Position numbers and translations under genes: made by a program
The notes under the pieces: generated by a model
What the model saw: the letters and a program-made list of their open reading frames with translations, nothing else
Database searches by the model: none
Told to the model about the DNA's origin: nothing
Assembly (NCBI RefSeq): GCF_009914755.1
Contig: NC_060927.1
Length of the DNA: 64,000 nt
Source: the human T2T-CHM13v2.0 reference genome, Homo sapiens
Strand: one strand, 5' to 3'
Shown here: positions 1 through 47,413 of the stretch, piece after piece
How the letters are laid out: each line of letters opens with the position of its first letter
Position numbering within the stretch: the first letter of the stretch is position 1

Positions 1-3380
<3,380 letters not shown>

Positions 3381-3383
<3 letters not shown>

Positions 3384-4250
3384 AAATGCTCAACATCACT
3401 AATTATCAGGGAAATGCAAATTAAAAAGCATATGGAGAGATCATCTCATCCCAGTTGGAATGGCAATTATCAAAAAGACAAAAAAATAAATGCTGGTGAG
3501 GATGTAGAGAAAAGGGAAGTCATACATGGTTGGTGGGAATGTAAACTAGTGGAGCCATTATAAAAAACAATATAGAAGTTCCTCTATACCGAAAAATAGA
3601 AATACCATATGATCCAGCAATCTCACTACTGGATACTTATCCAAAGGAAAATAAATCAGTATATCAAAGAGATTATCTGTACTCCCACGTTTATTGTAGC
3701 ACTATTCACAATAGCTAAGGTCTGGAATCAACCTAAGTGTCTATCAATATTCAATGAAATACTATTTATCTATTTATAAAGAATGAAAGCCTATCATTAA
3801 TGGCAACATGGATATGTCTGGAAGACATTATGTTAAGTGAAATAAGTCAGACACAAAATGATGAATACCTCATGTTCTCACTCGTGAGAGCTAAAATAGC
3901 TGAGCTCATAGTAGAAGAAGAGAGGAGAATTGTGGTTACTAGCGGCTGGAAAGGATAAAGGGAGGAGATAATAGGGAGAGAATGGTTAATGAAGAGCTGC
4001 AGCTAAATAATAGGAATAATTTCTAGCACTCTATAGCACTGTAGAATGACTATTGTTAATAATCATGATGTATATTTTCAAATAGGTAGAAGAGAAGATT
4101 TTGAATGTCCCCAATACAAAGGAATGATATATATTTGCAGTGATTAATGTGTTAATTACACTAAGTTGATTATTACACATTGTATACATGTATTAATGTA
4201 TCACCATGTTCTCCATATATATGTACAATTATTACGTTTCCATAAAAATG
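3381..4250 (+). mobile_element. Old L1MA-type 3' end (ORF2 tail and 3'UTR) into which the L1PA is inserted
   Basis: AAATGCTCAACATCACTAATTATCAGGGAAATGCAAA... is a degenerate ORF2 C-terminus; L1MA-type 3'UTR ...ATTACACATTGTATACATG...TACAATTATTACGTTTCCATAAAAA. Confidence 0.85.
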
Positions 4251-7084: not shown

Positions 7085-7993
7085 GATGTGATAGCAGCCA
7101 AGATGGCCGAATAGGAACAGCTCCAGTCTACAGCTCCCAGCGTGAGCGACCCAGAAGACGTGTGATTTCTGCATTTCCATCTGAGGTACCGGGTTCATCT
7201 CACTAGGGAGTGCCAGACAGTGGGCGCAGGCCAGTAGGTGCATGCACCGTGCGCCAGCCGAAGCAGGGCGAGGCACTGCCTCACTTGGGAAGCGCAAGGG
7301 GTCAGGGAGTTCCCTTTCTGAGTCAAAGAAAGGGGTGACGGATGCACCTGGAAAATCGGGTCGCTCCCACCCGAATATTGCGCTTTTCAGACCGGCTTAA
7401 AAAACGGCGCACCACGAGATTATATCCCACACCTGGCTCGGAGGGTCCTACGCCCACGGAATCTCGCTGATTGCTAGCACAGCAGTCTGAGATCAAACTG
7501 CAAGGCAGCAGTGAGGCTGGGGGAGGGGCGCCCGCCATTGCCCAGGCTTGCTTAGGTAAACAAAGCAGCCTGGAAGCTCGAACTGGGTGGAGCCCACCAC
7601 AGCTCAAGGAGGCCTGCCAGCCTCTGTAGGCTCCACCTCTGGGGGCAGGGCACAGACAAACAAAAAGACAGCAGTAACCTCTGCAGACTTAAATGTCCCT
7701 GTCTGACAGCTTTGAAGAGAGCAGTGGTTCTCCCAGCACGCAGCTGGAGATCTGAGAACCAGCAGACTGCCTCCTCAAGTGGGTTCCTGACCCCTGACCC
7801 CCGAGCAGCCAAACTGGGAGGCACCCCCCAGCAGGGGCACACTGACATCTCACACAGCAGGGTATTCCAACAGACCTGCAGCTGAGGGTCCTGTCTGTTA
7901 GAAGGAAAACTAACAAACAGAAAGGACATCCACACCGAAAACCCATCTGTACATCACCATCATCAAAGACCAAAAGTAGATAAAACCACAAAG
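7085..7993 (+). promoter_or_regulatory. L1 5'UTR internal sense promoter (YY1 site CAAGATGGCC ~7099) and antisense promoter; short form lacking the 129-bp ZNF93 site
   Basis: CpG-rich ~900-bp UTR; CAGCAGGGTATTCCAACAGACCTGCAG at ~7855-7881 is the deleted junction typical of L1PA3-6030/PA2/HS. Confidence 0.85.
7323..7538 (-). CDS. ORF0: L1 antisense ORF0 (71 aa), intact
   Basis: MAGAPPPASLLPCSLISDCCASNQRDSVGVGPSEPGVGYNLVVRRFLSRSEKRNIRVGATRFSRCIRHPFL* matches primate L1 ORF0. Confidence 0.85.
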   Translation of the reverse strand: MAGAPPPASLLPCSLISDCCASNQRDSVGVGPSEPGVGYNLVVRRFLSRSEKRNIRVGATRFSRCIRHPFL

Positions 7994-9010
7994 ATGGGGA
8001 AAAAACAGAACAGAAAAACGGGAAACTCTAAAACGCAGAGCGCCTCTCCTCCTCCAAAGGAACGCAGTTCCTCACCAGCAACAGAACAAAGCTGGATGGA
8101 GAATGACTTTGACGAGCTGAGAGAAGAAGGCTTCAGACGATCAAATTACTCTGAGCTACGGGAGGACATTCAAACCAAAGGCAAAGAAGTTGAAAACTTT
8201 GAAAAAAATTTAGAAGAATGTATAACTAGAATAACCAATACAGAGAAGTGCTTAAAGGAGCTGATGGAGCTGAAAACTAAGGCTCGAGAACTACGTGAAG
8301 AATGCAGAAGCCTCAGGAGCTGATGCGATCAACTGGAAGAAAGGGTATCAGCAATGGAAGATGAAATGAATGAAATGAAGCGAGAAGGGAAGTTTAGAGA
8401 AAAAAGAATAAAAAGAAATGAGCAAAGCCTCCAAGAAATATGGGACTATGTGAAAAGACCAAATCTACGTCTGATTGGTGTACCTGAAAGTGATGGGGAG
8501 AATGGAACCAAGTTGGAAAACACTCTGCAGGATATTATCCAGGAGAATTTCCCCAATCTAGCAAGGCAGGCCAACGTTCAGATTCAGGAAATACAGAGAA
8601 CGCCACAAAGATACTCCTCGAGAAGAGCAACTCCAAGACACATAATTGTCAGATTCACCAAAGTTGAAATGAAGGAAAAAATGTTAAGGGCAGCCAGAGA
8701 GAAAGGTCGGGTTACCCTCAAAGGGAAGCCCATCAGACTAACAGCGGATCTCTCGGCAGAAACCCTACAAGCCAGAAGAGAGTGGGGGCCAATATTCAAC
8801 ATTCTTAAAGAAAAGAATTTTCAACCCAGGATTTCATATCCAGCCAAACTAAGCTTCATAAGTGAAGGAGAAATAAAATGCTTCACAGACAAGCAAATGC
8901 TGAGAGATTTTGTCACCACCAGGCCTGCCCTAAAAGAGCTCCTGAAGGAAGCGCTAGACATGGAACGGAACAAACGGTACCAGCTACTGCAAAATCATGC
9001 CAAAATGTAA
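7994..9010 (+). pseudogene. L1 ORF1 with a single premature stop (R110*)
   Basis: MGKKQNRKTGNSK...LQNHAKM split by CGA>TGA at 8321-8323. Confidence 0.95.
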
Positions 9011-9058
9011 AGACCATCGAGACTAGGAAGAAACTGCATCAACTAACGAGCAAAATAA

Positions 9059-12900
<3,842 letters not shown>

Positions 12901-13207
12901 ACAATGAGATCACATGGACACAGGAAGGGGAATATCACACTCTGGGGACTGTGGTGGGGTGGGGGGAGGGGGGAGGGATAGCATTGGGAGATACACCTAA
13001 TGCTAAATGACGAGTTAGTGGGTGCAGCGCACCAGCATGGCACATGTATACATATGTAACTAACCTGCACAATGTGCACATGTACCCTAAAACTTAAAGT
13101 ATAATAAAAAACAAAATTAATTTTGGCATTCCTGATTGCCTGAATATGATTATCTGCTCTTTGTGTTTTCCTTAAAACTGGTTTTAGGTGTTTTACGAGT
13201 GCCCTCA

Positions 13208-18383: not shown

Positions 18384-19649
18384 TTGGCTGCAGAAAATAT
18401 GCATGTTTAGAAATGTTTTTATTTTCCAGGATCTGAAGCTTCTATCCAAATGTTAATGGCTATTTGATGTACAGTTTAGAGTTATTGATTCCCTCTTTAA
18501 TTTTCTCATAGTCACAGAAATAAGTAATAATTTGCTTCATATAGAAAATTTGGGAGTAACTTTATCTAATATACTCAGCTATGGTAAATAGAAACTTTTC
18601 AACAGCTCTTCCCAAGAGTTGTTGGGGGTTATAGAATCTTAGTTCAGTCAAGGATGACTTTAGACAAAGGGTTTGTTCTGAGTCTGTCTTTCCACAGAAT
18701 GTACTGAGTGCATCTTTTCTGATAATCTGAGGGGTGCAGATCTAACTCACTGTTTGACTTTCATAGATTCCAAGCTTTATTGCAAAATCCTTTATTCCTA
18801 CTCTGTCATCCGTTTTATTTCTCTATTATATTTCCAGTTCTCTCTTTTTCCAATTATTCCCCAATAGAAATGAGTCATGATTTGGGGGAATTGACATGCT
18901 CTCAGCCATGGAAAAGTAAATAGAAGTAAATCCTGGAATAAATGTTTCTGCTGAGTGGAGTTACATAACTGGCACACATGCGCAGGGACATGGGAAGGAT
19001 TTAGCGGAAGGTTGAGACAGGAGCTTTCACATTTGTTTATATAAAGGGGAGGGGTAGAAAGAACTAATGGACAGAAACAGGTTATGGCAAGGTATCTGTT
19101 TCCTGCCCAGTCATTTGGACTAGGTTTCAGCCCTTTATGCAAAAATAGCTTAAGGCCAGAAGAGCTATTATGATTTCTAAGAGACCCTGGAAAGAAATAT
19201 TGCTGCTAATGAACTGAGGTGACATAGGACAATGCAGAGTTGAAGAGAGGATAATTTCTCCTTGTCTGCACAGAACGCAGCACACCTTCAGCCCTTCAAA
19301 GACGGGCAGCTTTGGCTGCACCCCTGGGCAGTTCCCTGGGTATGCACATTGATGCAATTATAATGTCCTCGCTATGAGATTTCCCACCACCCACGCTGGT
19401 GTTCACATCTAGCGGCATCACAGAGAGGTAGAACTAAAGGGAAGAAGTTGATGGATGCCATCTGGTATTGCAGATGATGACAGGTATGTGAATCTCCACA
19501 ATGCACTGCTGTCAGCCCACAGAAACACCTGAGAAAGCTATGTGGAATTTGCATATGCCGTTGGAAGTAAGGAGAAATTCTGGGTTATTGAGATTAATAT
19601 GATTTCTTTCATGTTTATATGTAGTTTAAGTGTGATGCCTGAATAGCAT

Positions 19650-19955
19650 AATGCCTTGTTTTTTCCTTCTTTCCTTTTAGGTACTATAAGCATGACTGTA
19701 GTACAGATGATGTTTTAGTATTGAAAACAGAGAAATCATTTTACATTCTAAAGTATATTCATTACTTTAAAAATCATAATTGTTAGTTTCTTCATAAGTA
19801 TATATATTTTAATTTAGTTACTGTATGCAGGCTAATTCCATGCATTTTACATATATTAGTTAATTTAATCATCATAAAATCTTGTGAGATTGATGCTATT
19901 GCTATCTCTAGTTTACAGGTAGAGAAACTGAGAGTGCCCAACTAGAAACTGATTA
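19650..19955 (+). repeat. Inverted repeat IR-A, left arm (includes a truncated minus-strand MIR at ~19815-19955)
   Basis: Reverse complement of 20943-21250 with ~14 differences in ~306 bp (hand alignment). Confidence 0.95.
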
Positions 19956-20151
19956 TCTACACTTAACAAAGGTTCAGAGATGGGATTAGTTATTCTAATT
20001 AGGATGTTTCTATGTGAAATTTAGTAGGAGCGTAAACACTTTCCATAAATGTATTTCTCACCAGTTCCAACTTACGTATTTTGTTGCAAAACAAATTAAT
20101 AAAACTTTAGGACTTCTGTTTTTTAAAAGGGCAATTAGAAAAATTTATCAT

Positions 20152-20482
20152 GTCTGGGTGCGGTGGCTCACACCTGTAATCCCAGCACTTTGGGCGGCCA
20201 AGGCGGGCAGATCACCTGAGGTTGGGAGTTCAAGACCAGCCTGACCAACATGGAGAAATCCCGTCTCTACTAAAAATACAAAAAATTAGCCAGGCATGGT
20301 GGTGCATGCCTGTAATCCCACCTACTCGGGAGGCTGAGGTAGGAGAATCACATGAATTGGGAGGCGGAAGTTGTGGTGAGCCAAGATCGTACCATTGCAC
20401 TCCAACCTGGTCAACAAGAGTGAAACTCCATCTCAAAAAAAAAAAAAAAAAAAGAAAGAAAGAAAGAAAGAAAGAAAAGAAA
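20152..20482 (+). mobile_element. AluSp, in the loop of IR-A
   Basis: Diagnostic GGTTGGGAGTTCAAGACCAGCCTGACCAACATGGAGAAA; A/(GAAA)n tail; TSD-like AGAAAAATTT on both sides. Confidence 0.92.
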
Positions 20483-20879
20483 AGAAAAATTTTAAATGTT
20501 GAGTAGCTGCTTAAGAAGCAGGAAATAAAGATGGAGATTTACTATACAGAAAATCCTCTAAGTGGAAGGGTCTTTTCAAGGAAAAAGTATCTCAGAAGAA
20601 AAATTGAGATCCAAAGAAATACACTGTATTAGAGGAACATGACTTCAGATTGACTGTTTTGAAAACTTAAAAAAAAACCTTAATTATTGATAGCATGATA
20701 ATGATCAGGGTCCTTCTGGTGGGGTACCTCTCAACAAAATTAAATTTTTAAAAAAAGTGAATCCAATAGCAATAGTATTAGTGTTTGACAGTGTTTAAAT
20801 GCCAGAAAAAAATAAAAGTGAATTTGTTACATGCTGTTAGAAAGGGCATTATTATGTTTGTAAATCATTGCTGCTGTTA

Positions 20880-21085
20880 GTAAGGTATAATATTAAAGAG
20901 CTCATTTTCTGGAGCTAGATAGCCCACATTTAGATCTTGTCTTAATCAGTTTTTAGTTGGGCACTCTCAGTTTCTCTACCTGCAAACTAGAGATAGCAAT
21001 AGCGTCAATCTCACAAGATTTTATGATGGTTAAATTAACTAATATATGTAAAATGCATGGAATGTAGCCTGCATACAGTAACTAA
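20880..21085 (+). mobile_element. MIR (partly inside IR-A right arm)
   Basis: AAGAGC...CTGGAGCTAGA...CTCAGTTTCTCTACCTGCAAAA...GTAAAATGCATGGAATGTAGCCTGCATACAGTAA. Confidence 0.75.
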
Positions 21086-21250
21086 ATTAAAATATATATA
21101 CTTATGAAGAAATTAACAATTATGATTTTTAAAGTAAATGAATATACTTTAGAATGTAAAATGGTTTCTCTATTTTCAATTCTAAAACATCATCTGTACT
21201 ACAATCATGTTTATAGTACCTAAAAGGAAAGAAGGAAAAAACGAGGCATT
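20943..21250 (-). repeat. Inverted repeat IR-A, right arm
   Basis: Reverse complement of 19650-19955, ~95% identity. Confidence 0.95.
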
Positions 21251-22074
21251 TTTATCAGATATTTTTAAACTCATATACAGTGAAAACACTCATATACAGT
21301 GAAAGGGACATTTCTAAATATTTCTGTCCCAGCAAAGAGGTTTTTGTAGCCAAGGTATTTGCTCATAAGCATCTATAGTTGGATGATGTCACATACTTGC
21401 TCATCTGCCATTACTTGGGAACAGTAGCTTGTGGCAAGCAAGAACCTGAAGCTTTTACATGGCCATGGTTATGAACCAGGAAATAGGGAATTAAATAAAA
21501 TCAGAAAAACGGTTGTTGGATCTAAGTTAGGAATCAGTACAAGACCTCATAGAATGATAGGATGACTCATGGTTCTGTGCCTCCTAGAACAATGTTCAAT
21601 ATGACTAACCTGCCACCAAATTAAATGTTTGCTCCAGGATGGTCAGTAAGACAGGCTTGGATTTTCTAATGGACATTTTAGTAAGCAGGTCTGAGGCAAG
21701 GTAGAGAGATTCAGGAATACTGGGCCATCAGGGATTATAAAGGTTTGAGGGGATAGGAGGGTAGGAATAGAAGAAAGATTCTGTAAATCTTTCTTCTTCA
21801 CATTTGCAAGTCTTTTTACTCTCTATTATGCCTAGGAATGTGTGCTAGTGCCAAGCAAATCAGAGTAAATTCCTCTCTAAAAGAGCCATCCAGTTAATTA
21901 GATTGCAATACATAGATGATATATATCATTTAGCATTCTTAGAGGTTATAAATTAAGACATTACATTCAGTGAAAAACAGCTATATAGTTTACCGATTTT
22001 CTACATGTCTCATAATTTGATGAAAATAAATTAACCCATGATCTGCCTTTATTCTAAAAAAAAAAAAAAACTAA

Positions 22075-26822: not shown

Positions 26823-28813
26823 TGTTTTCATTAACTTTTATTTTAAGTTCCTGGGTACATGTGCATGATGTGCAGGTTTGTTACATAGGTAAACATGTGC
26901 CATGGTGGTTTGCTGCAGAGATCAACTTACCACTCGGGTATTAAGCCCAGGACCCATTAGCTGTTGTTCCTGATGCTCTCACTTCCCTGCCTGACAGGCC
27001 CCAGTGTGTGTTGTTCCCCCATGTGACCATATAGTCTCATCGTTCAGTTCCCACTTATAGGTGAGAACATGTGATATTTGTTTTTCTGTTCCCGCGTTAC
27101 TTCGCTGAGGATAACAGCTTCCAGTTCCATCCATGTCCCTGCAAAAGGACAAGATCTTGTTCCTTTTATGGCTGCATAGTATTCCATGTGTGTGTGCATA
27201 CCACATTTTCTTTATCCAGTCTACTGTTGATAGGCACTTGGGTTGATTCCATGTCTTTGCTGTTGTGAACAGTGCTGCAACAAAAATGTGCATGCATATA
27301 TTTTTATAATAGAATAATTTATATTCCTTTGGGCATATACCCAGTGATGGGATTGCTGGATCAAATGGTATTTCTGCCTCTAGATCTTTGAGGAATCGCC
27401 ACACTGTCTTCCACAATAGTTGAACTAATTTACACTCCCACCAACAGTGTAGAAGTGTTCCTTTATCTCCTCAACCTCACCAGCATCTATTGCTTATTGA
27501 CTTTATAATCATCATCATTCTGACTGGTTTGAGATGGTATCTCAATGTGGTTGTGATTTGCACTTCTCTAATGAAAGAAATAAAGATATTCAAATAGGAA
27601 GAGAGGAAATCAAATTATGTTTGTTTGCAGATGATATAATCCTATATCTAGAAAACCCCATCGTCTCAGCCCAAAAGTTTCTTAAGCTAAGAAGCAACTT
27701 CAGCAAAGTCTCAGGATACAAAATCAAAGTGCAAAAAATGCTGACATTCTTATATGCCAACAACAGGCAGGCAGAGAGCTAAATCATGAATGAACTCCCA
27801 TTCACAATTGCTACAAAGAGAATAAAATACCTAGGAATACAGCTAACAAGGGAAGTGAAGGACCTCTTCAAGGAGAACTGCAAACCTCTGCTCAGGGAAA
27901 TCAGAAAGAACACAAACAAATGGAAAATCATTCCATGCTCATGGGTAGGAAGAATCAATGTCATGAAAATGTCCATATTGCCTAAAGTAATTTAAAGATT
28001 AAAGGCTATTTCCATTAAACTACTATTGACATTCATCACAGCATTAGAAAAATATATTTTTAAATTCATGGGGAACCAAAAAAGAGCCTGTATAGTCAAG
28101 ATAATCCCAAGCCAAAATAAAATAGCTGGAGGCATCACACTACCTATTTCAAACTATATTCCAAGCCTAGCATAACCAAAACAGCATGGCACTGGCACAA
28201 AAACAGACACATGGACCAATGGATCAGAATAGAGAACTCATAAATAAGACCACACAACTACAACCATTTGATCTTCGATAAATTTGACAAAAACAAGCAA
28301 TGGGGAAAGGATTTCCTATTTAATAAATGATGCTGGGAGAACAGGGTAGCCATATGCAGAAAACTGAAACTGGACCGCTTCCTTACACCTTATAAAAAAA
28401 TGAACTCAGGATGGATTAAAGCCTTAAATGTAAAACCCAAAACTATAAAAACCCTCGAAGAAAATCTATGAAATATCATTCAGGATATAGGCATGAGCAA
28501 AGATTTCATGATGAAAACACCAAAAGTAATTGCAGCTAAGCAAAAATTAGCAAATGGTACGTAATTAAACTAAGAGCTCCTGCATGGCAAAAAAAAAAAA
28601 AAAAAAAAAAAACTATCATCAATGTGAACAGACAACCTACAAAATGGGAGGAAATTTTTCAATCTATCCATATGACAAAGGTCTAATATCCACAGTCAAC
28701 AAGGAACTTAAACAAATTTACAAGAATAAAACCAACAACCCCATTAAAAAGTGAGCAAAGGACATGAACAGACACTTCTCAAAAGATTATATTCATGCAG
28801 CCAACAAACATAT
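26823..28813 (-). mobile_element. 5'-truncated, 5'-inverted (twin-primed) older L1PA (about PA10-13)
   Basis: 26823-~27572 is 3'UTR and ORF2 end on the minus strand; ~27573-28813 is upstream ORF2 on the plus strand. Degenerate TSD GAA(G/T)CTAAC(T/A)TTT at 26810-26822 and 28814-28826. Confidence 0.92.
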
Positions 28814-28888
28814 GAATCTAACATTTAAAAGGACTGAAACTTTATTGACTTTATTCACTGAATAATTCTTAACCCTCTTTATTTTCCA

Positions 28889-28975: not shown

Positions 28976-30099
28976 ATATATATATTTTTCAGCTATATAC
29001 AGCTTCACACATGCACTTGGAGTTTGACTTTTGAGAACACTCGGTCAGGGCTCATATAATCTTTTATCTATGATTTGCATTTACCTGTTAGATCATTGGC
29101 TTTAAGCTGTTCTGGGGAGCAACAAAGATGTCTCCAATTAAGGCTTAAGGGTTGCCCCAAGTAATCAATATTTAGCTTTAATTTGCATCCTTAAAAGGAA
29201 CAAAAAATATATATAAATTGAACAAAATTGATAGCAATTCACTTTCAAGGTTTGGGGAATATGAATGGTAAAATGCCATTCCCCTAGCAAAGAAAATCAA
29301 TGGATAGTACATTACTTTCCAAATATCTGATTAGCTTACTTTAATATGACTAGCATAAATCCACAAGAGAGTTACTGTAATATCGTATATTTCATCTTCA
29401 GTGCCCATATTAGGCTATTTGATTAATTGTCCTACATTTTCAGTAATCCTTAAAAATTTTCCCAAAATGAACTCCTTTCATTCTGGTATTTTCAACATAG
29501 ATTTTTCTTCCCTGGGTTTTTCAATAATGAGACTCTGTGTGAAAGTAGATATAGCTTTCAGGAGCACAAAGAATATTACATAAAAGGACATTTTAATACT
29601 TGTAAATGAGTTGTAGATGCAAACTTCTCTCATGATCCACAGGAAACATTCTAGTTACTATATCACATATGCAGATCCTGTTTTGAATATGAAGAACATG
29701 GAGATAACCTAGCACAGCATGATTGGATTGTCAACTTAATGTTTTTATTCATTATTCCCAGCAATTTCAAATCAGATTATAACATGTGTAAACTACAATT
29801 ATTATAATGCAGTTTTTATGAATAGATGCTATGCAATTTAATATGGTCATTAATTATCAAAACAATCATTTTTATAAAATACAATTATGCAATAGGAAAG
29901 ATGCGTATTTTAAAGTACACACATGCAATATGCAGAAGGAAGAAATGAAATAAAGAAAATATAAAAAAAACAAAAGGACATAGGAAAACAACTTTAAATG
30001 GCTATTGATATTCACCCATCAGTAGTTACTGACAAAAAAAATCTTATATTAAAATAACTAATAAGCTTAATTTATATGCTGGCTTAATATACAGACAAC

Positions 30100-30359
30100 A
30101 TATATATATATGTAAATCCACATTGTTTACATGTATATGATATATGTATATGTTTGTATGGTGTGCGTGTGTGTATACCCATAGATATTCACATATGCAA
30201 TCCAAATATATCTCCAGATGTATATATATCCATGCATATCTCTCCATATATATCCATCTCTCTATATTATATATAATATATATATAATAATATATATATA
30301 TCTGCCTGCTTTGAGCTGCTTTGAAGGCTCGCACTCTCTTTCTCTCTCTCCATAGATAG
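30100..30359. repeat. TA/TATC-rich low-complexity tract
   Basis: Seen directly. Confidence 0.8.
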
Positions 30360-31014
30360 ATGGATATTTCAACGCAGATCACAATGGTGTAGGCACTCGA
30401 TCTTCCAGATGTTTTAGAGGTGAGCCCACTGGAATTATATTAGTTTCGAGTTTTCTTTGATTATTTTAGTAGCATTTTGAGAGGGCCTAAGATAGAGTCC
30501 TTACTTTCCAATTCTTCTTGGTTGTAAAACTGAAAAATTGACTCAAAAAGTCAAATGGAGCAAATTATAATATTGGATTTATCGCTGGTAACATTGGATT
30601 GTAGAGATTGGGTGGACTTGAAGTCAAAACAGGGCCTTCTCTTTTAGGACCACAAGCCCATAGAGTAGGGTGGACACACCCCTTCACTGAGTATCAGAAG
30701 GGAAGACAAGACAGAGAAGAGGCCTTGATGGGCTGCAGAAGGGAGGTGCATTTTGTCTGTTCCTGGCATGGTGACTACAAGAGCAAGTTCCACTATGCTT
30801 GAGTTCTGGGAAGCCATAAGTAAGATAAAAGGCTATGTACTATCAGCATTGTTTCTGTAGAACTCACTGGTAACATAAGCCAATCATTATTCACTCCCTT
30901 GGGGAGGAACAAGTATTAGGATGAAGATAAAACTGGTCACTCCTTCCTCAGAATGTAGAATTATTGGCAAAAGTTTCCTTTTCGGGACCTCAGTAGCAAT
31001 GCAACAGCATCATC
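30360..31014 (+). repeat. Inverted repeat IR-B, left arm
   Basis: Reverse complement of 31946-32603, including a 36-bp perfect match TGAAGTCAAAACAGGGCCTTCTCTTTTAGGACCACA. Confidence 0.95.
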
Positions 31015-31945
31015 ATGCCAACAGTAGTTTGTGGAATCCATTCATCTTCCTACCAGACTCTAGGGGTGATATCATCAAGATTCCCAGAATATAGAGGCAG
31101 AAATATAAAAAGTGATATGGAATCGAAACATAGGTCATTTTCTCAGCTTAGGATCAGAAACTGTATTATTTAATGGTTGTCTTCTATTTTCTTAGTGGAT
31201 TTTATCTTGGGCTACTTCATGGTAGCTGATGCCTGTATCCCACCCCTGACATGGACACATACATTTTTACAGTTCTTATGTGATTCGATATAGATTGGTT
31301 TCTCACCTAAATAGAAAAAAGAATTATAAAACTTCCTAATGGTGGTGAAGGAAGCAACTTCCTTGGTAAGTACAAATGTATCAGAAGTGCTTGATTCAAA
31401 ATGTAAACCTTTCCTGTTCAGGGAGTAACAGGCTATAAAAGGATTGGCAGGACTCAGGACTTACTGGTTGGCAAACCTATTACAATTAACTGTTTCCTGA
31501 AAGTGTCATTCAGCCTTGTAGAATAGATGCCTCTGTTGGGGCTGTGTTCTCTTGTCTGTCATGAACAGACATAGAGAAAAATAGCCTCAGTATCTCAGTC
31601 TTATATTGTTGAGAATAATCTTATTGTATAAGAATATTGAAGCAGGAGTGCTGTAAAGGATTTTAATATTTTGACTATAATACAAAACTGTCTTTTACAT
31701 TTATACACATGTATTTAATAAAGGCAATGGTTTCAAACTGATTTTTATGTTGCTACTATTGTATTGTCTGTGATATTTATGCTGTTGTGGGTCATCTATA
31801 CAGTCTCTAGTGAGCTGCTTTGGAGAGTGTGGCTGAGCATAATTTGATGAGAAAAATAGAAGAACAGAGGATTTTTTATTCAGATTCTATGTGAAAATAG
31901 GTTAAAAGAACATAGCACATAACATTAGAGATAGAGGAGGACTCG

Positions 31946-32603
31946 GATCATCTTACTACATTCCCATTGTGGTCTCCAAAAAGGAAACTGCTGCCAATAA
32001 TTCCAGATGCTGAGGAAGTGTCCACATTTTTCTTTATCCTATTAATTGCTCCTTCCCAAGAAAGTGAGTAATAATTGGCTCATGTTACCAATGAGTTCTG
32101 TGGAAGCAATGCTAATTGCACATAGCCTCTCTCTTACTTGTGGCTTCCCAGAACCCAAGCATAGTGGAATTTGCTCTTGTAGTCACCGCACCAGAGGCAG
32201 AAAAAATGCACCTCCCTTCTGCGGCCCATCAAGGCCTCTTCTCTGTCTCACCTTCCCGTCTGATACTCAGTGAAGAGGTGGGTCCACCCCACACTATGGG
32301 CCTGTGGTCCTAAAAGAGAAGGCCCTGTTTTGACTTCAGGTCCATCCCACTCTCTACAATCTAATGTTACCAGTGATAAACCTATATTATAGTTTTCCCC
32401 ATTTGACTTTTTGGGTCACTTTTTCAATTTGTTAGAGCCAAGAAGGATGGGAAAGGGAAGAATCCATCTTAGATCCTCTTCCACAAAATACTACTGAAAT
32501 TAACTAAATGAAACTAAAAAATAATTTACTTCCAATGGGCTCACCAGTAAAATATTTGGAAGCTCAAATGCCTGTACAAATATGATCTCATTGAAAGATC
32601 CAT
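31946..32603 (-). repeat. Inverted repeat IR-B, right arm
   Basis: Reverse complement of 30360-31014; core ~90% identical, ends ~65-80% (hand estimate). Confidence 0.95.
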
Positions 32604-32732
32604 ACATATAAATATATAGATATATATTTGTATAGATATAGATATGGATGATGTAGAAGATATATATATGGATTATATAGATGATATATACATATAGTCA
32701 CATAGATATAGATAGATATAGATGTGGATATA
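32604..32732. repeat. GATA/TA-rich low-complexity tract
   Basis: Seen directly; compositionally the mirror of 30180-30359. Confidence 0.8.
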
Positions 32733-33429
32733 GGTAGTCCTTCAGGAAAAAGATGGCATTTTTTACCCAGCCTTGGATAAATACCCCAACCCTCTCTGCA
32801 GATGACGTCTAATTGCCAGAAAAGTATTTCCTTTGTTCCACCGACCACGCTATGAACATTGACTGTGGCTAAAGTTATTTTGTGGTTTTATATGAAGGTA
32901 CTGAGTCAAAAGTCCTCTAGCACTCTTGTTGGTTTGAAGATGAACAGACTTTTTAGTTCATCTAGAACTAAACTAGATTAACATCTAGACTTTTTAGTTC
33001 ATTTAAAAACCTGTATCCTTTGTCTCATCTGCAAAAAAAAAAGTATTAACAAATGCCTTACCAAAGAAGAATTATAGCAAAGCTTTAGTAAATTGAAAAG
33101 AATTAAATCCTTACGTAAAATTCAAAAGGTTATGCAATTGGTATTTTATTTATTTTCATTAACAACAAATGAGGGCTTAAAATAAATACCCGATTCTTTA
33201 CCCCAGCTGTCCATGATTTTATCAATCATTGAGAAATGACAGTGCAACTTAATAAACTTATCTAGAAAAGTAAATATTATTAAAATGTTATATTTTTATA
33301 AAAATTGTAGTGCCATCTGCAAATGTTTTAACCCTATTACTGAATAAATTACCTAATATGTGTTCACCTCAGCACACAGAAAGTTTGTGTAGTTTTCACA
33401 GATAAAAGAGTTTACATCCTACAACTGGA

Positions 33430-33568
33430 TAGTCTTGGTTCAAATCCCTTGTTAATTGTGTGTCCTCCATTGAGTAACCATATGTAACTTAGTTTAATCA
33501 TCTATAAAATAATGCCTACCTCATAGGGTTGTTTGAAGGATTAAATGTGACAAGCATATATTGATCAT
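33430..33568 (+). mobile_element. MIR fragment interrupted by MST
   Basis: GGTTCAAATCCC...CATCTATAAAATAATGCCTACCTCATAGGGTTGTTTGAAGGATTAAATG. Confidence 0.7.
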
Positions 33569-36479: not shown

Positions 36480-37000
36480 ATTATATATTCATTCCCTCTT
36501 TTTCTAATATCAATAGCCAAATTTTCCTAGGAAAACTACTATTCCTGCACTCTTAGACCACTGGTCCAAAGTAAATGTGGGGTTCATTTAATCTTCCAGG
36601 CTCCTGGTATAGGCATCAGTACCAATTAACGCATTGCAACTCCTTGGCCTACAATGAACTCTGGAGGCAGACAAGGCCGGTATGAAAGAGTGCAGTGAAA
36701 TTAATAGAGAATCTCATTCTGCTAGGTTTTCTCAGCTATGAAGAGGAAAACTAACAGATTCCTGAGTCAGCAACACAACCTGCTTGAGAATGAGGACAAC
36801 ACAGAACAGAGCATAACTGAGACATGGGAAAAATAGCTTTCAGGTAACAGATTTTTGAGCACCTTGATACATCTGAGCCTGAATACAATTTTGCCACGGA
36901 GATGTTGAGTTATATCAACCAATAAATTCTCTTTTGGGTTTTATGGCAGTTTTCAGAATGTTTTCTGATTCTTGCAACCAAAAGAGTTCTTATTAACTCA
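36480..37000 (+). mobile_element. Old MLT1 (J/K-like) LTR
   Basis: 3' end CCAATAAATTCTC...CTTGCAACCAAAAGAGTTCTTATTAACTCA. Confidence 0.6.
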
Positions 37001-44864: not shown

Positions 44865-45192
<328 letters not shown>

Positions 45193-47000: not shown

Positions 47001-47270
47001 ATATTTCCCCGTATTAACACATCATCCCCTCCATTATCTGGGGCTCTTTCTCACATCTCAGATATTGAATTATTTTACTGCCAGACACCTGTGTTCATTA
47101 TATATCTCCCTCTTTCTCCTACTCTTACATCTTCTTAGCAATCAGCTTTTGTTGATCCTAACTCCTAAAGCTTCCTCTGTCTGTGCAAACAAATGACAAT
47201 TGGGAGACTCCATATTCCCACCCCACATGAAATTGCTGGTACCTGGAACTAGATTTTAAAACAATACATA

Positions 47271-47413
47271 TGCCTGTAGTCCCAGCTACTTGGGAGGCTG
47301 AGGCAGGAAAATCATTGAACCCGGGGTGCAGAGGTTGCAGTGAGCCGAGATTGCGCCACTGCATTCCAGCCTGGTGACAGAGACTCCAACAAAAAAAATA
47401 AAAATAAAAAATA
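47271..47413 (+). mobile_element. 5'-truncated Alu (right monomer only)
   Basis: Right arm plus tail; TSD ACAATACATA at 47261-47270 and 47417-47426. Confidence 0.92.

What the first reader, a model, noticed from the sequence alone, without database searches (positions are those of the whole stretch)
30360..32603. Large inverted repeat (~650-bp arms, ~930-bp loop) with a better-matched core
Seen: 30360-31014 is the reverse complement of 31946-32603. Identity is uneven, about 90% over a ~240-bp core (30580-30820 vs 32140-32380, with a 36-bp perfect run) and roughly 65-80% toward both ends. Both outer ends run into mirror-image TATC/GATA tracts. Clustered mismatches (ACA/GTG, CAT/TGC, TGT/CAC) look like CpG decay on opposite strands of a once CpG-richer ancestor. 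I do not recognise the arm as a known TE. Inference: an old inverted duplication whose core is homogenised by arm-to-arm conversion or constrained as a dsRNA stem. If transcribed it would form a >600-bp hairpin (ADAR substrate, endo-siRNA source or splicing/back-splicing element), and it is also a substrate for recurrent inversion.
Basis: partly seen in the sequence, partly recalled or inferred. Interest (0 to 1): 0.8.

Follow-up and report, generated by a model that had tools for sequence, protein, structure and literature searches.

The report
Old single-locus inverted duplication, human chr3
A real pair of roughly 640-base inverted copies around a 957-base spacer, found only at this one place in the human genome, that looks like an old local duplication decaying neutrally inside a predicted non-coding RNA intron rather than a mobile element or a proven functional hairpin.

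Summary
The inverted repeat is real. Arms 30363-31001 and 31959-32597 align over 630 bases with 102 mismatches (83.8% identity), around a 957-bp spacer. The local alignment score is 705, against a maximum of 32 for 182 random window segments. A better-matched core (30531-30825 / 32132-32426) has 89% identity against 75% outside it. That contrast was reached in 1 of 300 and 1 of 5000 permutations.

Arm, core and spacer occur nowhere else in the 3.1-Gb genome. A control repeat gave 11,763 candidates. So this is not a pair of interspersed-repeat copies and not a propagated transposon. I found no Pfam domain, Rfam family, tRNA or protein-level paralogue.

Nothing points to selection for an RNA stem. 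Wobble-compatible transitions are balanced between strands (29 vs 36) and no CpG is shared between the arms.

Best reading: an old local inverted duplication, with a later conversion tract of about 300 bp. Constraint on the core cannot be excluded without orthologues, which these tools do not hold. Recurrent inversion today is unlikely, because the longest perfect run is 36 bp. Interest is low to moderate.

The parts
30363..31001 (+). Left arm of the inverted repeat (639 bp)
   Evidence: Global alignment with the reverse complement of 31959-32597: 630 aligned bases, 102 mismatches, 18 gap columns. Collinear blocks also found.
31959..32597 (-). Right arm (639 bp), reverse complement of the left arm
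   Evidence: The own-genome search lists it as the only other match of the left arm (82% identity, query 1-642 of 655).
30531..30825 (+). Better-matched, GC-richer core of the left arm
   Evidence: Two-rate change-point fit: 32 differences in 296 columns (89.2%) against 88 in 352 (75.0%) outside. 2dlnL is 22.3, reached in 1 of 300 permutations. GC over 30565-30825 is 46%, against 36-39% in the rest of the arm.
32132..32426 (-). Better-matched, GC-richer core of the right arm
   Evidence: GC over 32132-32393 is 48.9%, against 34-40% in the rest of the arm.
30619..30654 (+). Longest perfect run between the arms (36 bp); partner at 32303-32338
   Evidence: A pattern search of the whole genome allowing up to 3 mismatches finds only these two places; the reversed-pattern control gives 0.
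31002..31958 (.). Single-copy spacer (957 bp, GC 35%)
   Evidence: No internal inverted homology (best self reverse-complement score 40). 31015-31945 matches only itself in the genome at E <= 10. No Pfam hit on its open frames.
30201..30301 (.). TATC/TA-rich low-complexity tract outside the left arm, separated from it by about 58 unmatched bases (30303-30360)
   Evidence: Tandem Repeats Finder rows; sequence; alignment.
32602..32733 (.). GATA/TATA-rich low-complexity tract abutting the right arm
   Evidence: sequence. The hub's table lists 32599-32726 as masked.

Best explanation
A short stretch of unique sequence, at least about 640 bp and perhaps including an adjoining GATA-type microsatellite, was copied once in inverted orientation about 1 kb from the original. 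The most likely route is a replication template switch or fold-back repair event. This left two arms around a single-copy 957-bp spacer.

Since then both arms have decayed neutrally, with CpGs lost independently in each arm. At roughly half the age of the duplication, one arm-to-arm gene-conversion tract of about 300 bp reset the central core, which is why the core is twice as similar as the rest.

The element sits in intron 1 of a predicted lncRNA. It would fold into an imperfect hairpin in that pre-RNA, but it has no demonstrated function.

Shown here: the repeat, its uniqueness in the genome, the significant two-rate pattern, and the lack of coding, RNA-family or strand-biased signals. Inferred: the mechanism of origin, the conversion event and neutrality.
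For: 1. Single locus.
- The arm has 2 of 2 scored places genome-wide: itself and its partner.
- The right core has 2 places at E <= 10.
- The 36-mer with up to 3 mismatches has 2 places, and its control has 0.
- The spacer has 1 place.
- Positive controls show that the search does see repeat families: 11,763 candidates for 27102-27465, and weak hits at 74-78% over 88-118 bp for another arm.

2. Architecture fits an inverted duplication with a spacer. There are two inverted copies, a unique spacer and sharp inner junctions. The 957-bp spacer lies inside the 766-70,466 bp range of spacers in sequenced human fold-back inverted duplications (PMC3907307, passages).

3. Decay looks neutral.
- Of 102 mismatches, 65 are transitions and 37 transversions.
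- There are 9 CpG-type sites.
- The arms hold 5 and 3 CpGs, and none is shared.
- There are no Pfam domains in 11 open frames, no Rfam family inside the arms or loop and no tRNA.
- Protein-level searches return only self and partner; the rest have E > 1.

4. The core fits a conversion tract. It is about 296 columns long with step-like edges, matching the 'few hundred base pairs, rarely longer than 1 kb' quoted for mammalian conversion tracts (PMC3961182, passage). K2P is 0.109 in the core against 0.235-0.252 outside it.

5. A second, younger and unrelated inverted duplication lies 10 kb away. It also has uneven arm identity, 98% near the spacer falling to 90% and then 72% outward. So uneven identity is not special to this repeat.
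Against: The core is GC-richer (46-49%) than the rest of the arms (34-40%) and the window (36%). Conversion between two copies acts only at mismatched sites and can hardly create a 10-point GC difference. So the core was probably a compositionally distinct element from the start, which leaves room for constraint on it.

A GC-rich patch in AT-rich DNA would, if anything, be expected to decay faster. This is from recalled knowledge and was not tested.

The strong/weak asymmetry at core mismatches (8 vs 16, p = 0.15) gives no significant signal of biased conversion.

No orthologous sequence could be examined, so neither the conversion nor the neutrality is demonstrated. Junction microhomology cannot be read after this much decay.
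Confidence: 0.55

Rival explanations
1. The duplication is the same, but the core is better matched because both copies are under purifying selection at the DNA level. An example would be a duplicated regulatory element of about 300 bp, kept in both orientations in the gene-poor region beside PLOD2.
For: The core is compositionally distinct, with GC 46-49% against 34-40% in the rest of the arms. It diverges at less than half the rate of both flanks, K2P 0.109 against 0.235-0.252. Its boundaries are step-like, as for a discrete element.
Against: None of the CpGs in the core is retained in both arms, and 5 of the 9 CpG-type decay sites lie in the core. Divergence of 10% between copies is still high for a constrained element. 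According to the hub's table, RefSeq lists no functional element here; the only enhancer feature in the window is at 7397-7979. There is no family, motif or structure match. The core of the left arm alone folds no better than shuffles, z = 0.07 and -1.28.
Confidence: 0.2
2. A functional long hairpin RNA. The intron of the + strand lncRNA folds into a stem of about 640 bp that serves as an ADAR target, an endo-siRNA source or a processing signal. The core is kept paired by selection on the RNA.
For: The repeat lies inside intron 1 of predicted lncRNA LOC107986138 on the + strand (hub gene table). The predicted fold is -1062 kcal/mol, against -601 for a control with the right arm reversed. In it, 546 of 639 arm bases pair arm-to-arm and the longest uninterrupted helix is 46 bp. 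A second, unrelated inverted repeat (306-bp arms, 96% identity) lies in the same intron. Dense pairing of that kind could be a locus property.
Against: There is no strand bias in wobble-compatible transitions: 29 on + against 36 on -, p = 0.46, and 10 against 10 in the core. The - strand folds almost as well, at -1039 kcal/mol, as any inverted repeat must. Rfam gives only sub-threshold hits in the flanking TA-rich tracts, 38 bits against a gathering score of 90 and 22-27 bits against 100. The lncRNA is a predicted model with no paper in the library (0 papers). Long inverted repeats in introns are common by-products: 5.1 million predicted dsRNAs, about 1 million of them over 300 bp (PMC11838218, section 10).
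Confidence: 0.08
3. A lone, decayed DNA transposon with unusually long terminal inverted repeats (a fold-back-type element), or two independent opposite copies of an ancient repeat family.
For: The overall shape is long inverted termini around a short unique middle, with simple-sequence flanks that could hide a target-site duplication. I could not compare the arms with Dfam or Repbase. NCBI's mask lists only high-copy repeats, so being unmasked does not prove the sequence is unique.
Against: There is no other copy of arm, core or spacer in 3.1 Gb at the DNA level, and none in this window with a profile of the two arms. Copies of a family as young as the arm divergence implies (about 84% pairwise identity) would be found, as the control at 86-89% was. 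There is no transposase-like domain (0 of 11 frames) and no protein-level paralogue. Two independent copies of an ancient family would not be 84-90% alike while lacking any third relative.
Confidence: 0.05
4. The duplication is the same, but the uneven identity reflects only local differences in mutation and indel rate, or alignment noise in the AT-rich, slippage-prone outer and inner parts. No conversion or selection is involved.
For: Sixteen of the 18 gap columns lie outside the core. The flanks are AT-rich and show a lower transition/transversion ratio (45:31) than the core (20:6), as misaligned columns would give.
Against: The contrast holds in aligned columns only: 10.0% mismatch against 19.8-21.2%. 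It was matched in 1 of 5000 and 1 of 300 permutations. The difference in transition/transversion ratio is not significant (p = 0.16). By recall, twofold neutral rate differences over 300 bp are not usual.
Confidence: 0.12

Closest known systems
Human inverted duplications with a single-copy spacer formed by fold-back or template switching (Hermetz et al. 2014, PMC3907307; passages read)
   Same: Two copies in inverted orientation are separated by a short unduplicated spacer. The 957-bp spacer falls within the reported range of 766-70,466 bp.
   Different: Those are de novo pathogenic events with kilobase- to megabase-sized duplicated segments (10 kb to 41.7 Mb in the table rows seen) and terminal deletions or translocations. 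This one is a fixed, interstitial copy of about 640 bp that is tens of millions of years old. Its junction microhomology can no longer be read.
Non-repetitive predicted dsRNA-forming inverted repeats of the human genome (dsRNAscan, Andrews and Bass 2025 preprint, PMC11838218; abstract and sections 9 and 10 read)
   Same: An intronic inverted repeat not made of interspersed repeats. That class is reported as sparse, about 2 per Mb.
   Different: I could not check whether this locus is in their tables, because the tables are not held. With about 85% of arm bases paired, it fails their 'long and highly paired' class of over 300 bp and over 96% paired, which holds 2,018 cases.
Inverted repeats that mediate recurrent polymorphic inversions (Aguado et al. 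2014, PMC3961182; passages read)
   Same: Inverted arms flank a short invertible segment. Gene conversion between arms is a known process there.
   Different: The breakpoints there lie in tracts of high identity, for example 782 bp at 99.9% within 7-kb arms of 94% identity. Here the arms are 639 bp at 84%, with a longest perfect run of 36 bp.
The younger inverted repeat in the same window (19597-19955 / 20943-21295)
   Same: A local, genome-unique inverted duplication with a spacer of about 1 kb (987 bp), in the same lncRNA intron, with uneven arm identity.
   Different: The sequence is unrelated (alignment score 24-30). It is much younger, with 11 mismatches in 306 bases. By recall of their consensus sequences, its arms carry a MIR-like piece and its spacer an Alu.

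Membership tests
Interspersed repeat pair (two independent opposite copies of one family) | Further copies elsewhere in the genome at similar or higher identity than between the two arms | tested here: not met
   Arm: 2 of 2 places, self and partner. Right core at E <= 10: 2 places. 36-mer with up to 3 mismatches: 2 places. A control repeat gave 11,763 candidates.
TIR DNA transposon with long terminal repeats / fold-back element | Multiple copies, or a match to a described consensus | tested here: not met
   No other copy in the genome. Comparison with Dfam or Repbase consensus sequences is not possible with these tools, so that half is untested.
TIR DNA transposon with long terminal repeats / fold-back element | Target-site duplication directly outside the termini | tested here: inconclusive
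   Both ends run into TA/GATA-type low-complexity sequence, and the left has 58 unmatched bases. No direct repeat can be read there.
TIR DNA transposon with long terminal repeats / fold-back element | Transposase remnant between the repeats (autonomous form) | tested here: not met
   0 of 11 stop-to-stop frames of 51-82 aa hit Pfam at E <= 1. The loop frame has no protein-level relative in the genome; the best non-self hit has E = 5.
Segmental duplication (operational definition recalled: at least 1 kb and at least 90% identity) | Length at least 1 kb and identity at least 90% | tested here: not met
   Arms are 639 bp at 83.8% identity. Only the 261-296-bp core reaches 89-90%.
Fold-back / template-switch inverted duplication with spacer | Inverted copy adjacent to the original, with a single-copy spacer of hundreds to thousands of bp | tested here: met
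   The 957-bp spacer is unique in the genome and has no internal symmetry. The reported spacer range is 766-70,466 bp (PMC3907307).
Fold-back / template-switch inverted duplication with spacer | Short inverted microhomology (2-8 bp) at the spacer/inverted-copy junction | tested here: inconclusive
   The inner junctions were read. With about 20% divergence, the original junction bases cannot be reconstructed.
Long, highly paired dsRNA (putative MDA5 substrate; >300 bp and >96% paired, PMC11838218 section 10) | More than 300 bp and more than 96% of nucleotides paired | tested here: not met
   The length criterion is met. Pairing is 546 of 639 (85%) on + and 557 of 639 (87%) on - in the minimum-energy fold.
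Hairpin-RNA / endo-siRNA or ADAR-edited locus | Transcription through both arms, with small RNAs or clustered A-to-I sites | not testable with these tools
   No expression, editing or small-RNA data are available here. Only the predicted lncRNA model spans the repeat (hub table), and no paper in the library names it.
Hairpin-RNA / structured RNA under selection | Substitutions biased towards pair-preserving changes on the transcribed strand | tested here: not met
   G:U-compatible transitions number 29 on + against 36 on - (p = 0.46), and 10 against 10 in the core. Compensatory changes need orthologues and were not tested.
NAHR-competent inverted repeat (recurrent inversion) | Tract of near-perfect identity of hundreds of bp | tested here: not met
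   The longest perfect run is 36 bp, and the best 250 columns still hold 26 differences.
mir-297 / mir-3149 microRNA precursors (Rfam RF04217, RF04176) | Score at or above the family's gathering threshold | tested here: not met
   Scores are 38.3 bits against 90, and 22-27.2 bits against 100. All four matches lie in the TA-rich tracts at 30089-30212 and 32598-32649, outside the arms.

The most novel reading that the evidence does not exclude
The first intron of the predicted lncRNA LOC107986138 has twice, independently and at different times, acquired a long genome-unique inverted duplication with a spacer of about 1 kb. The older one has 639-bp arms and the younger one 306-bp arms at 96% identity. 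On this reading, the locus is maintained as a producer of long intramolecular dsRNA (a mammalian hairpin-RNA gene, ADAR or Dicer substrate), and the well-matched core of the older hairpin is kept paired by selection.
Probability: 0.07. Interest if true: 0.65.

Novelty: new member of a known kind. Interest (0 to 1): 0.25.

Why it matters
As it stands, this is a clean, datable example of a small fixed inverted duplication in unique human DNA. It shows a likely conversion tract and is useful as a test case for how such repeats arise and decay. It does not change any current view.

It would matter more in two cases. If primate orthologues showed concerted evolution or compensatory change in the core, it would be evidence for a selected long hairpin. 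If the two unrelated inverted duplications within 11 kb turned out to mark a locus prone to template switching, it would be a natural hotspot for that mutational process.

Tried and rejected

2. Sensitive profile search of the whole genome for old, diverged copies. I built a sequence-only model of the two arms, but this genome cannot be searched with a model. The model found only the two arms within the 64-kb window. Very old relatives below about 74% identity therefore remain untested genome-wide. The control shows the DNA search picks up only a few such weak hits.

3. Coding potential. There are 16 stop-to-stop frames of at least 50 aa. The longest, 131 aa, lies largely in low-complexity sequence. 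None of the 11 frames tested hit Pfam. Two frames searched at protein level in the genome gave only self and partner.

4. RNA families and tRNAs: nothing inside the repeat.

5. Local folds of the core alone. The right core folds better than shuffles on both strands (z = -2.8), but the left core does not (z = 0.07 and -1.28). There is no consistent local structure.

6. Further inverted homology beyond the arms or inside the spacer: none, with best scores of 38 and 40.

7. Similarity between this repeat and the second inverted repeat, arms or spacers: none, with scores of 22-32.

8. Biased gene conversion signal at mismatches: 8 vs 16 in the core (p = 0.15) and 39 vs 45 overall. Not significant.

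9. Literature. 'LOC107986138' gave 0 papers. The dsRNAscan tables that might list this locus are not held; only an 11,065-character PDF text without the tables is available. One search failed on an over-long phrase.

10. Editing and small-RNA catalogues could not be queried by coordinate. I did not try to convert coordinates to older assemblies, because that would have rested on recalled gene positions.
Full report
**Observation**

The inverted repeat exists as described. A seed-and-extend search of 29500-33500 gives six collinear inverted blocks. The largest is 30610-30825 against 32132-32347 (216 nt, 90% complementary). It is flanked by blocks of 117 nt at 79% and 92 nt at 75%.

A gapped local alignment runs from 30225-31001 against 31959-32732: 789 columns, 621 identical. 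Its outer 140 columns lie in low-complexity sequence at 56-76% identity.

I take the arms as 30363-31001 and 31959-32597. Their global alignment has 648 columns, 630 aligned bases, 102 mismatches (83.8% identity) and 18 gap columns. K2P distance is 0.185. The spacer is 31002-31958, 957 bp.

The arm-to-arm local score is 705. For 182 random 655-nt segments of the same window, either strand, the mean is 23.5 and the maximum 32.

Arms that differ by 16% cannot be an assembly artefact of the kind that makes false palindromes. This last point is my inference.

**Uneven identity**

- 30565-30825: 26 mismatches in 260 aligned bases (K2P 0.109).
- Outer part: 42 in 198 (K2P 0.252).
- Inner part: 34 in 172 (K2P 0.235).
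- Fisher's test gives p = 4e-4. A 250-column window with as few as 26 differences arose in 1 of 5000 permutations of the columns.
- A free two-rate change-point fit puts the core at 30531-30825 / 32132-32426. There are 32 differences in 296 columns (89.2% identity) against 88 in 352 (75.0%). 2dlnL is 22.3, reached in 1 of 300 permutations.
- The longest perfect run is 36 bp, at 30619-30654.
- The core is also GC-richer: 46.0% and 48.9% in the two arms, against 34-40% in the rest of the arms, 35% in the spacer and 36% in the window.

**Substitution pattern**

Sixty-five of the 102 mismatches are transitions. Nine sites are of CpG type. At six of them one arm keeps CG where the other has TG or CA. 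At the other three one arm has CA and the other TG.

The arms now hold 5 and 3 CpGs, and none is shared. So the ancestor was richer in CpG than either arm today, but not a CpG island. The expected CpG count from composition is about 26 per arm.

**Flanks**

The right arm runs directly into a GATA/TATA-rich tract at 32602-32733. On the left, a TATC/TA-rich tract (30201-30301) is separated from the arm by about 58 bp with no counterpart on the right. That piece includes a 10-bp tandem duplication at 30306-30324.

The mirror arrangement suggests the duplicated unit included a microsatellite. The tracts themselves cannot be aligned meaningfully. Beyond them there is no further inverted homology, with a best score of 38.

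**Is it a repeat family?**

The window's own genome (3.1 Gb, 24 contigs) could be searched.
- The left arm matches only itself and the right arm: 2 candidates, both scored, with the partner at 82% over query 1-642.
- The right core at E <= 10 gives the same two places.
- The 36-mer with up to 3 mismatches gives one forward and one reverse place. The reversed-pattern control gives none.
- The spacer matches only itself at E <= 10.

Two positive controls show what the search can see. The masked repeat at 27102-27465 returned 11,763 candidates, of which 40 were scored; the 39 other than the query itself are at 86-89% identity. The arm of a second inverted repeat returned its partner plus three weak hits at 74-78% over 88-118 bp.

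A family young enough to give 84-90% identity between two of its copies would therefore have been found. Two independent insertions, or a propagated transposon, are excluded at that level.

Relatives below about 74% identity cannot be excluded genome-wide. The profile model I built is not accepted for this genome. Within the window it found only the two arms. No Dfam or Repbase library is available.

**Other content**

- There are 16 stop-to-stop frames of at least 50 aa. The longest lies largely in low-complexity sequence.
- None of 11 frames across the arms and spacer hit Pfam at E <= 1.
- Protein-level genome searches with a spacer frame and a core frame gave only self and partner; everything else had E > 1.
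- Rfam at E <= 1 gave four matches. All are below the gathering score and all lie in the TA-rich tracts outside the arms: mir-297 at 38.3 bits against 90, and mir-3149 at 22-27 bits against 100.
- No tRNA was found.

**Hairpin**

If transcribed, the 2235-nt stretch folds at -1061.7 kcal/mol on the + strand and -1038.7 on the - strand. The control with the right arm reversed gives -600.6, and five shuffles give -541 to -584. In the folds, 546 and 557 of 639 arm bases pair arm-to-arm, and the longest uninterrupted helices are 46 and 45 bp. This follows from the complementarity and is not evidence of function.

The test I could make for RNA-level selection is negative. Transitions that leave a G:U pair number 29 on the + strand and 36 on the - strand (p = 0.46), and 10 against 10 in the core.

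The core alone shows no consistent local structure: z = -2.8 for the right copy on both strands, but 0.07 and -1.28 for the left copy.

According to the hub's table, the repeat lies in intron 1 of the predicted lncRNA LOC107986138 (+ strand, exons 19170-19483 and 36726-36843). No exon lies in the loop. No paper in the library names this gene.

**Context from the literature**

- Andrews and Bass (PMC11838218; abstract and sections 9 and 10 read) predict 5.1 million dsRNA-forming structures in the human genome, about 1 million of them over 300 bp. Non-repetitive ones are sparse, about 2 per Mb. Only 2,018 are both over 300 bp and over 96% paired. This repeat, at about 85% paired, is not in that last class. 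Their tables are not held, so I could not look the locus up.
- Barak et al. (PMC7006430; abstract only) report selection against long, nearly perfect dsRNA in mRNAs but not in pre-mRNAs. That fits an intronic location being tolerated.
- Hermetz et al. (PMC3907307; passages) found that all 21 sequenced human inverted-duplication junctions have a single-copy spacer of 766-70,466 bp, and that 13 have 2-8 bp of inverted microhomology. The present architecture, with a 957-bp spacer, fits that pattern on a much smaller and older scale.
- Aguado et al. (PMC3961182; passages) place the breakpoints of repeat-mediated inversions in tracts of high identity. They quote mammalian conversion tracts as a few hundred bp, rarely over 1 kb.

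**Interpretation**

The simplest account is a single local inverted duplication of unique sequence, followed by neutral decay.

With a recalled neutral rate of 1-2.2e-9 per site per year, the flank distance of about 0.24 suggests 55-120 Myr. The core distance of 0.11 suggests 25-55 Myr. These are rough figures and rest on recall for the rate.

The core's size (about 300 bp) and its step-like edges fit one conversion tract, laid down when the arms were still about 88% alike.

Against this, the core's higher GC content is too large to be a product of conversion. The core was probably a distinct element before the duplication, so purifying selection on both copies stays a live rival. The complete lack of shared CpGs and the 10% divergence argue against strong constraint.

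Telling these apart needs orthologues. No vertebrate genome other than this one is reachable with the tools.

Present-day inversion or conversion is unlikely, given a longest perfect run of 36 bp.

**A second inverted repeat**

The only other local inverted repeat in the window (arms at least 45 nt, within 6 kb) is 19597-19955 against 20943-21295.
- Its inner 306 bp differ at 11 positions (JC 0.037).
- Arm identity falls from 98% near the spacer to 72% at the outer end.
- The spacer is 987 bp. By recall of the Alu consensus, it holds an Alu.
- The arm is unique in the genome apart from its partner and three weak hits, MIR-like by recall.
- It is unrelated in sequence to the first repeat.

Two independent inverted duplications with spacers of about 1 kb, 10 kb apart in one intron, are worth noting. 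Uneven arm identity in the second shows the pattern is not peculiar to the first. Whether two in 64 kb exceeds chance I could not test.

**Verdict**

This is a real, single-locus, old inverted duplication. It belongs to a known kind, with no evidence of function. Interest is low to moderate.

Noticed in passing
window 19597-21295: A second, younger inverted repeat lies in the same lncRNA intron, 114 bp downstream of exon 1. Its arms are 19597-19955 and 20943-21295 (332 of 362 columns identical; inner 306 bp with 11 mismatches), and its spacer is 987 bp. The arm is unique in the genome apart from its partner and three weak hits at 74-78%. It is unrelated in sequence to the repeat under study.
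   Followed up: partly
window 20150-20470 (within masked 20085-20504): The spacer of the second inverted repeat holds an Alu-like element with a poly-A and (GAAA)n tail. The identification is by recall of the Alu consensus. It matches 44876-44997 at 85% and 47270-47390 at 74%. Since it lies only in the spacer, it cannot date the duplication.
   Followed up: no
window 1-3430 and 9753-13127; 27003-28819: Two direct copies of a high-copy interspersed repeat lie 9.75 kb apart at 92-100% identity. Judged by length and masking, this is probably a LINE-1 3' part and a near full-length copy at 7252-13127; that identification is a guess. An older rearranged third copy at 27003-28819 has parts direct at 83-87% and parts inverted at 73-82%. 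The stretch 27102-27465 has 11,763 candidate relatives genome-wide.
   Followed up: partly
window 30089-30212 and 32598-32649: There are sub-threshold Rfam matches to mir-297 (38.3 bits, gathering 90) and mir-3149 (22-27 bits, gathering 100) in the TA/TG-rich low-complexity tracts flanking the repeat. They are most likely compositional.
   Followed up: no
window 30303-30360: About 58 bp between the left microsatellite and the left arm have no counterpart beside the right arm. The piece includes a perfect 10-bp tandem duplication at 30306-30324 and a CT-rich run. It is either an insertion on the left or a deletion on the right after the duplication.
   Followed up: no
window 32132-32393: The right core alone folds better than shuffled sequence on both strands (z about -2.8), while the left core does not (z = 0.07 and -1.28). 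I read this as noise rather than a conserved local structure.
   Followed up: no
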